In this document: in pieces, positions 16,645 through 25,762 of the stretch
How positions within the stretch are numbered: the stretch's first letter is position 1
Layout of the letters: each line of letters starts with the position of its first letter
From: a phage
DNA: 64,000 nt
Sequence record: PZ445511.1
Reading direction: 5' to 3' (one strand)
Translations under genes and position numbers: made by a program
Notes under the pieces: model-generated
The model's input: the letters and a program-made list of their open reading frames with translations, nothing else
What the model was told of the DNA's origin: nothing
Databases searched by the model: none

Positions 16645-16815
16645 ATGAAAACCTTAGTAATTATTGGTGTTAATACTCATGGTATTCGTACTACGAAAAC
16701 AGTTAAAACTACTAACATTGCTGAAATTACTACAAATCCTAAGAAGTTTGATTTCGCCAAAGTCTCAGCAGTTATGACAGAACAATCTTTTAACCAAGCA
16801 CTGGGAATTAAATAA
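16645..16815 (+). CDS. hypothetical small protein
   Basis: ATG with GAGGAAA RBS inside ORF 16624..16815. Confidence 0.45.
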   Translation: MKTLVIIGVNTHGIRTTKTVKTTNIAEITTNPKKFDFAKVSAVMTEQSFNQALGIK

Positions 16816-17258
16816 TGGAAGAGAATATTCTAGATGTTTTGCGTAGGGCTTTGCAGGAATCCAAGTTTGATGGTTCTGATAAAGAAGTAGCTAAAAGCTA
16901 CCAGACCATAATCGGAGATCTTCAGCGTGTTGATAAAGACTTCATTACTTCTGAACAGTTTATATCTTATCTAAAAGCTCAACTGAAAAGCATTAATCAG
17001 ACGAAAGCTAAACTTCACAGTCAAGATCTTGATAATTATAGCTTGCAGTCTGCTCAGTATGAATATATACTGAACAAATGGTTACAGCAGTATTTGCCTC
17101 CTCAGCTATCTGATTCTGAGATTCGCAAATACTTCGCAGAATTAGTTAAGCTGAATCCTGGGATTACAAAGGGTATGCTGATGAAAGCGATTAAGGAAGA
17201 GTTTCCTGGTCGTTACGACGGTGGCATTGCTGCTCAGGTTGCTGGCGAATTTAATTAA
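16815..17258 (+). CDS. GatB/YqeY-domain-like protein
   Basis: 147 aa; C-terminal GMLMKAIKEEFPGRYDGG resembles YqeY domain. Confidence 0.45.
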   Translation: MEENILDVLRRALQESKFDGSDKEVAKSYQTIIGDLQRVDKDFITSEQFISYLKAQLKSINQTKAKLHSQDLDNYSLQSAQYEYILNKWLQQYLPPQLSDSEIRKYFAELVKLNPGITKGMLMKAIKEEFPGRYDGGIAAQVAGEFN

Positions 17259-17301: not shown

Positions 17302-17784
17302 ATGAAAAGGAAAGAATACCCTACTAAAGAAATACTTGAAAAATATTTTGTAGCTGATCCTGATAATGGGATACTATATAGGAAAACAAAGAAAGGTTTG
17401 AAAGAGTGTTGTGCCAATAATAAGAAATCACATCCAGATGTGGGATTTCAGGGCGACACCTATCAACTGCATGTCTTATTATTTATTATGTACTATGGAT
17501 ATAGGCCTGAAGAAGTAGATCATAAGGATACTAATCCTAGAAATAATAGGAAAAATAATCTAAGGGACGCCTCTAGATCGCAAAATAATGCGAATAGAAA
17601 CCAACAATGCAATAATACTTCTGGGTACAAAGGAGTAAGTTGGGAAGGCTCTTCCTGGAGATACCAAGTAAGACATGAAGGAAAAAATTACAGTAAAAGA
17701 GGGTTTAAAACTGCGGAAGAGGCTTTCGAGGCCTCTAAGATATTAAGAGAATCCTTACATAAAGAATTTACTAACTTTGGTTAG
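17302..17784 (+). CDS. HNH homing endonuclease (HNH plus AP2)
   Basis: 160 aa; YGYRPEEVDHKD..N..N and GYKGVSW motifs. Confidence 0.7.
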   Translation: MKRKEYPTKEILEKYFVADPDNGILYRKTKKGLKECCANNKKSHPDVGFQGDTYQLHVLLFIMYYGYRPEEVDHKDTNPRNNRKNNLRDASRSQNNANRNQQCNNTSGYKGVSWEGSSWRYQVRHEGKNYSKRGFKTAEEAFEASKILRESLHKEFTNFG

Positions 17785-18414
17785 TAATAGTGGGGTGCCG
17801 AAACCACTTATGTAACAACACTGCCGTCCTAGTATAATAGGTATTATTAGGGCTTCACCGCCTGAAGATGTGGGTTCGAGTCCCACGGTCGGAAAGAGTT
17901 GGATAACTGGTGCTTCTAATGGCGAAGCAATCGCAGGCAGTTGCGCACTGCCAAAACCACGCGGTAGTTGGTTCCAGGCTAACCAACCACTCTTGAAAAG
18001 TATATACTACGGTTTTGCTTGTTCAGGAAGCTTCGCATCGAAAATCGGAGGTGCGATTTTATCAGACCGCGTGGAGGACGTCTCTCCGTTAAGTGACGAA
18101 AAGTGGGACGATTCAGGTAGAGCTGGATATGGAACACCTATACATATGCGGAGTGCGCACAAAGCATATTGCGGTGGTACTAAACGAAATTAGGAGTCAT
18201 GACCTGCACAAGTTTAGTATGTCATAACCGATGTACATTCAGTACAAAAACCACTGAAGCTAAGATAGATAGTCACCTTGACTTAAACTGGAAGATATTG
18301 TCTGACGGAAGGGCTGCAGAGCTTAATCTGAGGGGGCTGACCCTACCTACCGTCGGGTATCTTTAAGAGTTCTTACGAGAACTCTTAAAGATACCTAAAC
18401 ATTAAGGAATACTG
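17785..18414 (+). ncRNA. structured non-coding region (T-arm-like element and 17-bp perfect hairpin); identity unresolved
   Basis: 630 bp without convincing ORF or promoter; gtgggttcgagtcccac at 17870-17886; hairpin 18357-18394. Confidence 0.3.
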
Positions 18415-24582: not shown

Positions 24583-24654
24583 GCACCTATCGTCTAATGG
24601 TTAGGACATCAGGATTTCAATCTGAGAATTGAACTCCGATTCTCCGTGGGTGTG
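24583..24654 (+). tRNA. tRNA-like, probable tRNA-Glu(UUC) with degenerate T-arm
   Basis: acceptor gcaccta/tgggtgt with G-U pairs, good D and anticodon stems, loop atttcaa, CCA encoded. Confidence 0.4.
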
Positions 24655-24666
24655 CCAATTAATAAT

Positions 24667-24734
24667 TGGGGTACACATAGGTTGCTAGTGGGCCTCCAAA
24701 ACCCATGAAAAGGTTTCGAATACCTTTACCCCTG
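24667..24734 (+). tRNA. tRNA-Trp(CCA)-like with shortened D-arm
   Basis: 68 nt; anticodon loop ctccaaa, T-loop ttcgaat, 1-72 U-U mismatch; CCA encoded. Confidence 0.4.
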
Positions 24735-25426: not shown

Positions 25427-25567
25427 TTGCTGAAAGAATTGTTAAATCAATTCAGGCACGCGTAGGAACACTGCCTCAGTAATTGAAAGATGAGGCACGG
25501 TTTGGAGAGGTATGCCGCTACACGCTACGGTGCTAACTCCGTCTAGGTGAAAATCCTAGTCAGCAAT
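25427..25567 (+). ncRNA. 141-nt tRNA-like RNA (acceptor-like stem plus T-arm-like hairpin around a long insert)
   Basis: ttgctga...tcagcaa terminal pairing; ctagg-tgaaaat-cctag hairpin; internal hairpins; not a canonical tRNA. Confidence 0.3.
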
Positions 25568-25576
25568 ATAAATTTA

Positions 25577-25656
25577 GGGTCGTTAGCCAAGCGGTTTGGC
25601 GGTGGACTGTTAATCCATGTCGAAAGACAACGTAGGTTCGAATCCTACACGGCCCG
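25577..25656 (+). tRNA. tRNA with GUU (Asn) anticodon on a type-II-like body
   Basis: acceptor gggtcgt/acggccc, 3-bp D stem, anticodon stem gtgga/tccat, loop ctgttaa, 13-nt variable arm, discriminator G, CCA. Confidence 0.5.
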
Positions 25657-25762
25657 CCATATTCTATGTAGGATTAAGTAAACCGGTAGCCAACCAGCTA
25701 TCATTACTGATATCGAATTCAGTCACAGATACCATTTTTCACTAACAACTGAGGAAATAGAT

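What the first reader, a model, noticed from the sequence alone, without database searches (positions are those of the whole stretch)
25577..25656. tRNA with an Asn anticodon (GUU) on a long-variable-arm body
My hand fold gives a 3-bp D stem, anticodon loop CUGUUAA, a 13-nt variable arm forming a small hairpin, and discriminator G. Canonical tRNA-Asn is class I with a short variable loop, whereas a long variable arm with G73 is the signature seryl-tRNA synthetase recognises. It is the only Asn decoder I found in the cluster and completes the 20-amino-acid set, so either it is an unusual tRNA-Asn or it has ambiguous identity.
Basis: partly seen in the sequence, partly recalled or inferred. Interest (0 to 1): 0.5.

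Follow-up and report, generated by a model that had tools for sequence, protein, structure and literature searches.

The report
Phage asparagine tRNA with extra arm
This T5-like Salmonella phage encodes a genuine asparagine tRNA that carries a short extra hairpin normally seen only on tyrosine, serine and leucine tRNAs; the same odd design recurs in many unrelated large phages, is almost absent from bacteria, and seems not to have been described.

Summary
Window 25577-25659 (+) is a high-scoring tRNA (Rfam 59 bits) with anticodon GUU, discriminator G73, encoded CCA and a 13-nt variable region that forms a GUC-GAAA-GAC hairpin followed by three unpaired bases. The Ser-identity worry is not supported. 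The arm has bacterial tRNA-Tyr geometry (3-4 bp stem, 3-4 unpaired nt on the 3' side), not tRNA-Ser geometry (5-7 bp stem, 1 unpaired nt). G73 is itself an AsnRS identity element. The window is a T5-like Salmonella phage (99.9% to S147), but T5 itself has an unrelated class I tRNA-Asn at the same locus, so published T5 tRNA-Asn experiments do not apply here. The long-arm design is widespread: 85 distinct sequences in 120 viral contigs, with diverse acceptor stems, G73 in 77 of 85, and strong compensatory covariation in the extra stem. Across about 185,000 bacterial and archaeal species genomes I confirmed only 17 such genes, mostly inside dense tRNA arrays, and none in 5,426 E. coli genomes. 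The molecule is a mosaic: Lys-like acceptor stem, Asn anticodon arm, Tyr-like variable arm. Best reading: a functional Asn decoder charged by host AsnRS. The purpose of the arm is unknown; counter-defence is an untested possibility.

The parts
25577..25659 (+). tRNA-Asn(GUU) gene, 83 nt with encoded CCA (80 nt through the discriminator)
   Evidence: ARAGORN; Rfam RF00005 59 bits; cloverleaf MFE of -30.5 kcal/mol
25577..25583 (+). Acceptor stem 5' strand, GGGUCGU. It pairs with 25649-25655 (ACGGCCC), giving a U4-G69 wobble. The strand is identical to that of E. coli and phage tRNA-Lys(UUU).
25586..25600 (+). D arm, GCCA-AGCGGUU-UGGC. The 'AGCGG' loop is class II-like; position 16 is C.
   Evidence: ARAGORN structure; across the family, D-arm best matches are enriched for Ser and Tyr
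25602..25618 (+). Anticodon arm, GUGGA-CUGUUAA-UCCAU, with anticodon GUU at 25609-25611. It matches E. coli tRNA-Asn at 15 of 17 positions; the only difference is the pair swap C28-G42 to U28-A42.
25619..25631 (+). Variable arm, 13 nt: stem GUC (25619-25621) / GAC (25626-25628), GAAA tetraloop (25622-25625), unpaired AAC (25629-25631). Geometry is Tyr-type, with the same stem sequence as the E. coli tRNA-Tyr V stem.
   Evidence: covariation of this stem across the family
25632..25648 (+). T arm, GUAGG-UUCGAAU-CCUAC. Homology with the T5 genome resumes at 25635, inside this arm.
25649..25659 (+). Acceptor stem 3' strand (25649-25655), discriminator G73 (25656) and encoded CCA (25657-25659)

Best explanation
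This is a working asparagine tRNA of a T5-like phage, built on a class II-type core. Shown: it is a well-formed tRNA with anticodon GUU, G73 and encoded CCA. Its extra arm is a short GNRA-capped hairpin followed by three unpaired bases. It belongs to a large, mostly phage-borne family in which that hairpin is kept by compensatory base changes. Inferred: it is transcribed and processed with the rest of the tRNA cluster. Host AsnRS charges it by reading G34-U35-U36 and G73, and it decodes AAC and AAU. The extra arm projects from the core as in bacterial tRNA-Tyr. It is too short and wrongly oriented for SerRS, and G73 blocks TyrRS and LeuRS. The gene is one of at least three interchangeable tRNA-Asn alleles at this locus in T5-like phages: the window type, a second long type, and T5's class I type. 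These alleles are swapped by recombination, with a junction in the conserved T arm. Why the arm is kept is not shown. My preferred guess is that it reshapes the tRNA core so that host tRNA-directed defence nucleases handle it differently from host tRNA-Asn, while AsnRS, EF-Tu and the ribosome, which already accept class II tRNAs, are unaffected.
For: Real tRNA with the stated anatomy. Annotated as tRNA-Asn in hundreds of phage records; the same sequence at >=99% identity in 208 records and >=90% in 285. Family: full-length 81-87 nt homologues in Demerecviridae, several Straboviridae genera, Marfavirus, Phapecoctavirus and a phiKZ-like phage; 85 distinct long tRNA-Asn sequences in 120 viral contigs. 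Covariation: in a CM-based alignment of 74 distinct sequences the three inner V pairs are 92-99% paired with 4-5 pair types each, giving a paired fraction of 0.89 against a shuffle mean of 0.48 (0 of 2000 shuffles reach it). In an alignment-free test on the 25 distinct 15-nt V regions, columns 2-11, 3-10 and 4-9 are paired 100%, 100% and 96%, against 0.40-0.56 expected. Asn identity: G73 in 77 of 85 and U1-A72 in 52 of 85; acceptor+T domains best match class I tRNA-Asn (38% of best hits against 5.6% of the pool); the Asn identity set is the anticodon plus G73, transplantable into tRNA-Lys (PMC9976931). Not Ser-like: the V arm is Tyr-type; SerRS needs a longer arm (PMC6267555); G73 is an antideterminant for TyrRS and LeuRS (PMC9976931 table). 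Phage-restricted: no match in 5,426 E. coli genomes; only 17 ARAGORN-confirmed genes in 185,579 species genomes, 11 of them in arrays of 7-36 tRNAs. Allele exchange.
Against: There are no aminoacylation, expression or decoding data for the long-arm allele. The published functional data (PARIS rescue; failure to become an amber suppressor) concern T5's class I allele, and Bas34's allele is also class I. This allele has G1-C72, G2-C71 and G73, which are compatible with SerRS at the acceptor end. Relatives with 4-bp V stems resemble the 'tRNA-Tyr + 2 nt' variants reported to accept serine. The anticodon loop is identical to the host's and the stem differs by a single pair swap, so there is no obvious escape mutation at the known AriB cleavage site. 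The family was collected with a pattern that fixes the anticodon-arm sequence, so conservation of the anticodon loop across the family is not independent evidence. The counter-defence role of the arm is conjecture.
Confidence: 0.75

Rival explanations
1. Dual or ambiguous identity: SerRS also charges this tRNA through its long arm, G73 and G1-C72/G2-C71, so the phage places some serine at Asn codons.
For: The acceptor end is Ser-compatible (G1-C72, G2-C71, G73). SerRS ignores the anticodon and recognises arm shape and length. Adding just 2 nt to the tRNA-Tyr arm gives serylation (PMC6267555), and some relatives have 4-5 bp V stems.
Against: The window's arm is the same size as the unmodified E. 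coli tRNA-Tyr arm (13 nt, 3 bp, 3 unpaired nt on the 3' side), which is not a SerRS substrate. Ser-type arms in the same phage arrays are 5-6+ bp with 1 unpaired nt. Most family members have U1-A72 and C2-G71 type stems that are not Ser-like, yet keep the arm. Its D loop is 2 nt shorter than the 11-nt E. coli tRNA-Ser D loop when both are counted between 3-bp stems. Systematic Asn-to-Ser mistranslation in hundreds of successful phages is unlikely.
Confidence: 0.07
2. The arm is a counter-defence device. It prevents host tRNA-Asn-directed nucleases (such as PARIS AriB) from binding, or it acts as a decoy for nucleases that cut the tRNA-Tyr variable arm (PtuAB of Septu or Retron-Eco7). This would be a functional add-on to Asn decoding.
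For: Host tRNA-Asn(GUU) is a biologically relevant AriB target, and phage tRNA variants neutralise PARIS (PMC12409363). AriB is modelled as contacting both the anticodon stem and D-loop U16, and U16-to-C impairs cleavage of tRNA-Lys; this tRNA has C16 and a remodelled core. PtuAB cuts E. coli tRNA-Tyr in its V arm, and phage tRNA-Tyr escapes through a distinctive V loop (PMC13096335, PMC12673091). The window's V stem GUC/GAC equals the E. coli tRNA-Tyr V stem. The design is phage-enriched and selectively maintained. Alternative alleles at the same locus suggest diversifying pressure.
Against: No experiment has used a long-arm tRNA-Asn. The AriB cleavage-site sequence U36-A-A-U-C|C41 is unchanged. 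V-stem sequence varies across the family, so mimicry of E. coli tRNA-Tyr cannot be general. Once a long variable region exists, selection against misfolding alone would preserve the pairing.
Confidence: 0.25
3. Historical accident: the arm is a neutral legacy of mosaic origin. Either a tRNA-Tyr or tRNA-Ser core recombined with Asn/Lys parts, or a Tyr GUA-to-GUU anticodon shift plus A73G occurred, and the product then spread horizontally among phages. Only structural integrity is under selection.
For: Segment mosaic: Lys acceptor, Asn anticodon arm, Tyr-like V. Across the family the D arm is Ser/Tyr-like and the acceptor+T domain is Asn-like. A recombination junction lies inside the T arm. Homing endonucleases sit in these clusters and cut at tRNA 3' ends. 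Other class I isotypes also occasionally show long arms in phage arrays.
Against: The whole-body Tyr origin is not supported: by overall similarity the closest tRNAs are Lys and Ser(GCU), and Tyr ranks sixth. The design persists across very divergent phages and reaches about 37% of matching tRNA-Asn genes in contigs of 90 kb or more, which is a lot for a neutral trait. It is nearly absent from cells.
Confidence: 0.2
4. It is not a translational tRNA at all but a tRNA-like RNA (decoy, primer or regulatory RNA), like the stable tRNA-like RNAs annotated in T5.
For: T5-like tRNA regions contain several tRNA-like stable RNAs and degenerate tRNAs.
Against: All four standard arms are perfect. The canonical U33, A37 and T-loop GGUUCGAAUCC, G18G19 and the encoded CCA are present. 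It is the only Asn decoder in an otherwise complete set. Acceptor-stem covariation and G73 conservation across the family indicate selection for aminoacylation.
Confidence: 0.03

Closest known systems
Canonical bacterial tRNA-Asn (e.g. E. coli asnT), class I
   Same: Anticodon GUU, loop CUGUUAA, G73. The anticodon arm is 15/17 identical, and many family members share the U1-A72 acceptor type.
   Different: The host tRNA has a 5-nt variable loop and a 4-bp D stem with an 8-nt loop. This one has a 13-nt variable arm with a hairpin, a class II-like D arm and, in this allele, a Lys-type G1-C72 acceptor stem (2/7 identity to the E. coli Asn acceptor strand).
Bacterial tRNA-Tyr (class II, short variable arm)
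   Same: Variable region of 13 nt with a 3-bp stem (the same GUC/GAC) and 3 unpaired nt on the 3' side; 'AGCGG' D loop; anticodon differs by one base (GUA vs GUU).
   Different: G73 instead of A73 and U36 instead of A36, so it lacks Tyr identity. The acceptor stem is unrelated (3/7), and overall similarity is low.
Bacterial tRNA-Ser (class II, long variable arm)
   Same: G73, G1-C72 and G2-C71 in this allele; presence of an extra arm; D-arm resemblance across the family.
   Different: Ser arms are 16-23 nt with 5-7 bp stems and about 1 unpaired nt on the 3' side, and the D loop is longer. Most family members lack the Ser-type acceptor pairs.
Phage T5 tRNA-Asn(GUU) (T5t17), the experimentally studied PARIS-neutralising tRNA
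   Same: Same genomic locus (between tRNA-Cys and a conserved small ORF), same anticodon and G73, homologous 3' part and downstream flank.
   Different: T5's is 78 nt and class I, with loop UUGUUAA and a mismatch-rich anticodon stem. The 5' 58 nt are not homologous. Published results on it cannot be transferred to the long-arm allele.
Non-canonical class II-like tRNAs (allo-tRNAs, tRNA-Sec, engineered V-arm tRNAs)
   Same: A long arm on a tRNA whose anticodon is not Ser, Leu or Tyr; tolerated by the E. coli translation machinery (PMC7609411, PMC7590224).
   Different: Those have 8/4 or 9/3 acceptor/T branches and Ser-type long arms charged by SerRS. This tRNA has a normal 7/5 branch, a short Tyr-type arm and anticodon-based Asn identity.

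Membership tests
tRNA (Rfam RF00005) | Cloverleaf scoring above the curated gathering threshold | tested here: met
   59 bits against a cutoff of 29; ARAGORN call
tRNA-Asn (E. coli-type AsnRS identity) | Anticodon G34-U35-U36 | tested here: met
   GTT at 25609-25611 within the loop CTGTTAA
tRNA-Asn (E. coli-type AsnRS identity) | Discriminator G73 | tested here: met
   G at 25656; G in 77 of 85 family members; identity rule from PMC9976931
tRNA-Asn (E. coli-type AsnRS identity) | Class I architecture (4-5 nt variable loop) | tested here: not met
   13-nt variable region with a hairpin
tRNA-Asn (E. coli-type AsnRS identity) | Actual aminoacylation with asparagine | not testable with these tools
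   Needs biochemistry or charged tRNA-seq
Bacterial tRNA-Ser (SerRS substrate) | Long variable arm (about 5-7 bp stem, about 1 unpaired nt on the 3' side) giving the Ser-type orientation | tested here: not met
   3-bp stem with 3 unpaired nt, against E. coli Ser(CGA) with 6 bp and 1 nt. The 68 phage tRNA-Ser have a median V of 18.5 nt and mostly 5-6+ bp stems.
Bacterial tRNA-Ser (SerRS substrate) | G73 with G1-C72 and G2-C71 | tested here: met
   Present in this allele, but 52 of 85 family members have U1-A72
Bacterial tRNA-Tyr | Short class II variable arm (about 13 nt, 3-bp stem, 3 unpaired nt on the 3' side) | tested here: met
Bacterial tRNA-Tyr | A73 and anticodon GUA | tested here: not met
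   G73 and GUU
Phage counter-defence tRNAs (e.g. T5 tRNA-Lys/Thr/Asn against PARIS; T5/SP15 tRNA-Tyr against Retron-Eco7) | Resistance to a defence nuclease that cleaves the host isoacceptor, with rescue of infection | not testable with these tools
   Published tests used class I T5 tRNA-Asn. No data exist for the long allele.
Phage counter-defence tRNAs (e.g. T5 tRNA-Lys/Thr/Asn against PARIS; T5/SP15 tRNA-Tyr against Retron-Eco7) | Sequence changes at or near the nuclease recognition or cleavage site relative to the host tRNA | tested here: inconclusive
   The AriB site U36AAUC|C41 is unchanged. Nearby changes are C28-G42 to U28-A42, C16 in place of the host's U16, and the added arm.

The most novel reading that the evidence does not exclude
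Large phages have repeatedly kept or spread a class II-type asparagine tRNA whose Tyr-like extra arm is an adaptive self/non-self mark. It either lets the phage's Asn decoder escape host tRNA-Asn-cleaving immune nucleases such as PARIS AriB, or it titrates nucleases that cut the tRNA-Tyr variable arm (Septu or Retron-Eco7 PtuAB). AsnRS recognition would be untouched. That would be a structural, rather than anticodon-loop, route to tRNA-based immune evasion.
Probability: 0.22. Interest if true: 0.8.

Novelty: new variant of a known kind. Interest (0 to 1): 0.58.

Why it matters
Textbooks restrict long-variable-arm (class II) tRNAs in bacteria to Leu, Ser, Tyr and Sec. Here an Asn decoder with a class II core is common in large phages: about 12% of matching viral tRNA-Asn genes, and about 37% in contigs of 90 kb or more. 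It is maintained by selection and is almost absent from cells. This offers a natural test of how AsnRS, SerRS and TyrRS discriminate tRNAs by arm geometry. It is also a caution for anyone extrapolating T5 tRNA-Asn experiments to T5-like phages, which carry non-homologous alleles. Finally, it is a concrete candidate for a structural mode of tRNA-based evasion of anti-phage nucleases, directly testable with existing PARIS, Septu and retron assays and with BASEL phages (Bas30 carries this exact allele).

Tried and rejected
(1) Whole-tRNA origin from tRNA-Tyr by a GUA-to-GUU shift. Rejected for the body as a whole: overall similarity ranks Lys and Ser(GCU) first and Tyr sixth, the only E. coli BLAST hits are weak tRNA-Lys matches, and only the V arm is Tyr-like.

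(2) Using published T5 data (PARIS rescue; the GenBank note that an anticodon swap gives no amber suppressor) as evidence for this tRNA. Rejected once T5's tRNA-Asn proved to be an unrelated 78-nt class I allele.

(3) Using Bas34's failure to resist PARIS as evidence against arm-mediated protection. Rejected, because Bas34 (SelmaRatti) also has a class I allele.

(4) Native class II tRNA-Asn in Bacteroidota. The tandem hits in Muribaculaceae and Saprospiraceae are interrupted or truncated tRNA-Asn-like repeats, not class II tRNAs.

(5) MAFFT plus RNAalifold on 85 sequences did not recover the V stem, because variable-length hairpins were misaligned. I replaced this with a CM-based alignment and an alignment-free test.

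(6) A per-sequence hairpin-versus-shuffle test is only weakly discriminating for such short stems (87% against 54% with 3 bp or more).

(7) The Cys-Asn spacer holds no tRNA-like element, and promoter/terminator scans found nothing beyond chance.

(8) The original SerRS papers (PMC332736, PMC311177) are not held, so I relied on reviews.

(9) The published Sf14 tRNA-Asn isotype scores (Lys > Asn >> Ser, Tyr) fit a Lys-like body, but I did not verify that Sf14's gene is the long form.

Full report
**Observation.** The window is a T5-like Salmonella phage. A 4-kb stretch around the finding is 99.9% identical to Salmonella phage S147 (Demerecviridae, Epseptimavirus), and the locus is annotated tRNA-Asn in many records. 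ARAGORN calls tRNA-Asn(gtt) at 25577-25659, 83 nt with an encoded CCA. Rfam's tRNA model scores 59 bits over 25577-25656 and treats 10 nt of the variable region as an insertion. RNAfold's minimum-energy structure is a cloverleaf plus an extra 3-bp hairpin. Read directly, the parts are: acceptor GGGUCGU/ACGGCCC, D arm GCCA-AGCGGUU-UGGC, anticodon arm GUGGA-CUGUUAA-UCCAU, variable region GUC-GAAA-GAC-AAC (13 nt), T arm GUAGG-UUCGAAU-CCUAC, G73 and CCA. The only quibble is that this allele can form a fourth D-stem pair (A13-U22). GTT is the only Asn anticodon among the 28 ARAGORN calls. The '20 amino acids' claim holds if two degenerate genes that ARAGORN missed are counted: tRNA-Glu(UUC) at 24583-24654, and a sub-threshold tRNA-Trp(CCA)-like gene at 24667-24734.

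**It is not a one-off.** A BLAST search with the 83-nt gene finds 651 phage records, 208 of them at 99% identity or better. Full-length 81-87 nt homologues, all annotated tRNA-Asn, occur in T5-like phages and well beyond them. They are present in T4-like genera (Winklervirus, Jiaodavirus, Moonvirus, Karamvirus), Marfavirus, Phapecoctavirus and a phiKZ-like Pseudomonas jumbo phage. All have the extra hairpin with different stem sequences: GTC/GAC, GTTC/GAAC, ATCC/GGAT, GTCA/TGAC, GTCG/CGAC and GGC/GCC.

It yielded 115 long (79-91 nt) tRNA-Asn genes, 85 of them distinct, with very diverse acceptor stems. A scan that accepts both lengths returned 10 long and 70 short hits among the first 80 listed, and 7 long to 12 short among contigs of 90 kb or more.

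By contrast, 5,426 complete E. coli genomes contain nothing similar. In 185,579 bacterial and archaeal species genomes the long pattern hit 70 stretches. Only 17 of these are ARAGORN-confirmed long tRNA-Asn genes, and 11 of the 17 sit in arrays of 7-36 tRNAs per 8 kb. The remaining hits are truncated or interrupted tRNA-Asn-like repeats.

**The hairpin is under selection.** MAFFT could not register the variable-length hairpins. I therefore built a covariance model from a gap-free 15-sequence seed and let Infernal align the family. In the 74 distinct tRNA-Asn rows, the three inner V-stem pairs are 92-99% paired with 4-5 pair types each. The paired fraction is 0.89, against a mean of 0.48 and a maximum of 0.57 in 2000 partner shuffles. 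Because a CM alignment leans toward its own model, I repeated the test without any alignment. Among the 25 distinct V regions that are exactly 15 nt long, columns 2-11, 3-10 and 4-9 are paired in 100%, 100% and 96% of sequences, with 3-5 pair types. Shuffles predict 0.40-0.56, and the median over all column pairs is 0.32.

**What kind of arm is it?** I compared it with the Ser, Leu and Tyr tRNAs encoded in the same viral arrays.
- The long tRNA-Asn arm has a median length of 15 nt, a 3-4 bp stem, 0-1 unpaired nt on the 5' side, 3-4 unpaired nt on the 3' side, and a GAAA loop in 37 of 85.
- This matches tRNA-Tyr: median 14 nt, mostly 3-4 bp, 3 unpaired nt on the 3' side.
- It does not match tRNA-Ser: median 18.5 nt, mostly 5-6+ bp, 1 unpaired nt on the 3' side.

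The window's V region is 13 nt, exactly like E. coli tRNA-Tyr, and has the same GUC/GAC stem. Segment by segment, the window's tRNA is a mosaic relative to host tRNAs. The acceptor stem is tRNA-Lys (7/7 and 6/8), the anticodon arm is tRNA-Asn (15/17) and the V arm is tRNA-Tyr (9/13). Family-wide, acceptor+T domains best match class I tRNA-Asn (38% of best hits against 5.6% of the pool). D arms best match tRNA-Ser (25% against 6.3%) and tRNA-Tyr (7.4% against 3.8%).

**Identity.** According to the 2023 identity review (PMC9976931):
- E. coli Asn identity consists of the three anticodon bases plus G73, and transplanting these into tRNA-Lys confers Asn identity. The window's tRNA looks like exactly that construct.
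- G73 is an antideterminant against TyrRS and LeuRS.
- Bacterial tRNA-Ser conserves G1-C72 and G2-C71 and is recognised mainly through its long arm and tertiary shape.
- U1-A72 is the tRNA-Asn mark for the amidotransferase route.

Arm length is critical for SerRS: E. coli tRNA-Tyr becomes a serine acceptor only when 2 nt are inserted into its arm (PMC6267555). The window's arm is therefore at the non-serylated Tyr size. In the family, 77 of 85 have G73 and 52 of 85 have U1-A72. The arm is thus maintained on bodies that are clearly Asn-type and not Ser-type. I conclude that the tRNA is an Asn acceptor. The residual risk of serylation is small but real, because this allele has G1-C72, G2-C71 and G73, and some relatives have 4-5 bp V stems.

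**A correction that matters.** PARIS AriB cleaves host tRNA-Asn(GUU) as a secondary target, and T5 tRNA-Lys, tRNA-Thr and tRNA-Asn together neutralise PARIS (PMC12409363). The T5 GenBank record also notes that its tRNA-Asn does not become an amber suppressor when the anticodon is replaced. However, T5's tRNA-Asn is a different molecule: 78 nt, class I, loop UUGUUAA, with a mismatched anticodon stem. Homology between T5 and this window covers tRNA-Cys, breaks, and resumes only at 25635, inside the T arm. The T5-type allele occurs in about 136 phage records at 90% identity or better, against 285 for the window type. A second long allele (86 nt, ATCC-GYAA-GGAT stem) occurs in other T5-like phages, including BASEL phage Bas33. 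Bas30 (TrudiRoth) has the window's exact allele, and Bas34 has a class I allele. None of the published functional data therefore concerns a long-arm tRNA-Asn. The locus behaves as an exchangeable cassette in clusters rich in homing endonucleases.

**Mechanism.** Shown: the anatomy, the family, selection on the hairpin, the phage bias and the allele exchange. Inferred: charging by host AsnRS via GUU plus G73, decoding of AAC and AAU, and tolerance of the arm by EF-Tu and the ribosome, as for any class II tRNA. The reason for the arm is unknown. Defence nucleases do read tRNA body features. AriB is modelled as contacting the D loop (U16) as well as the anticodon stem. PtuAB of Septu and Retron-Eco7 cuts E. 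coli tRNA-Tyr within its variable arm, and phage tRNA-Tyr escapes through a distinctive V loop. A structural counter-defence role, as shield or decoy, is therefore plausible but untested. It competes with a neutral-legacy explanation in which the mosaic arose by recombination and only folding is under selection.

**Novelty.** Full-text searches combining phage, tRNA-Asn, variable or extra arm, and class II terms found no description of a class II-type tRNA-Asn. The phage-tRNA papers I checked for the term either do not use 'variable' at all or use it only for tRNA-Tyr. The library is incomplete, so an earlier description cannot be excluded. I class this as a new variant of a known kind: a real, already-annotated tRNA-Asn whose architecture, distribution and selective maintenance appear unreported.

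Noticed in passing
window 24583-24654 and 24667-24734: Two degenerate tRNAs that ARAGORN missed. The first is tRNA-Glu(UUC), 35 bits, with a deviant T arm. The second is tRNA-Trp(CCA)-like, 23.8 bits (below Rfam's cutoff), with a degenerate D arm. They lie in the same Tyr-Glu-Trp-Phe order as annotated in T5.
   Followed up: partly
window 17822-17895: ARAGORN's 'tRNA-SeC(tca)' is a tRNA-like sequence with a UCA anticodon and a mismatched acceptor stem (Rfam 33 bits). It lies where T5 annotates the stable 'RNAX'. It is probably a tRNA-like RNA rather than an opal suppressor.
   Followed up: partly
window 16815-17258 (+): A 147-aa ORF just upstream of the tRNA region has a sub-threshold YqeY-like (GatB tail / tRNA-binding domain) Pfam match (25.2 bits, cutoff 27). 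The positionally equivalent T5 gene, T5.081, is annotated 'tRNA amidotransferase'. A possible link to Asn/Gln-tRNA biology was not explored. The neighbouring ORF at 17302-17784 is an HNH endonuclease.
   Followed up: partly
window 25438-25635 vs T5 (L327 5977-6533): Homology with T5 breaks after tRNA-Cys and resumes inside the tRNA-Asn T arm. In between, T5 has ORF T5.069 plus a class I tRNA-Asn. The tRNA-Asn gene is thus an exchangeable cassette with a junction in the conserved GGTTCGAATCC segment.
   Followed up: yes
viral loci L126, L031, L034, L035, L037, L038, L204, L150, L161 and others: By ARAGORN, other class I isotypes in phage tRNA arrays sometimes carry long variable regions. tRNA-Ile(UAU) has 21-26 nt arms (recurrent), and there are also cases in Thr(UGU), Cys, Met and Trp. 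I did not verify them individually, and some may be mis-registered calls.
   Followed up: no
L285, L322, L325 (Muribaculaceae/Sangeribacter MAGs); L278, L260 (Saprospiraceae MAGs): Tandem copies of interrupted or truncated tRNA-Asn-like sequences lie next to normal 74-nt tRNA-Asn genes. Examples are a 13-15 nt insertion after the anticodon loop, or a 5' half followed by a strong hairpin. They are not class II tRNAs, and their nature is unknown.
   Followed up: partly
L264, L266, L273, L318 (Verrucosispora/Micromonospora): Actinobacterial chromosomal tRNA arrays with 23-36 tRNA genes in 8 kb include 89-90 nt long-arm tRNA-Asn genes. Together with other arrays, such loci hold most of the confirmed long-arm tRNA-Asn genes found in cellular genomes.
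   Followed up: no
window 25619-25628 vs E. coli tyrU (L015 273-357): The V-stem sequence GUC/GAC of the phage tRNA-Asn is identical to the V stem of E. coli tRNA-Tyr, the arm that Septu and Retron-Eco7 PtuAB nucleases cleave. This could be coincidence, a trace of origin, or mimicry.
   Followed up: partly
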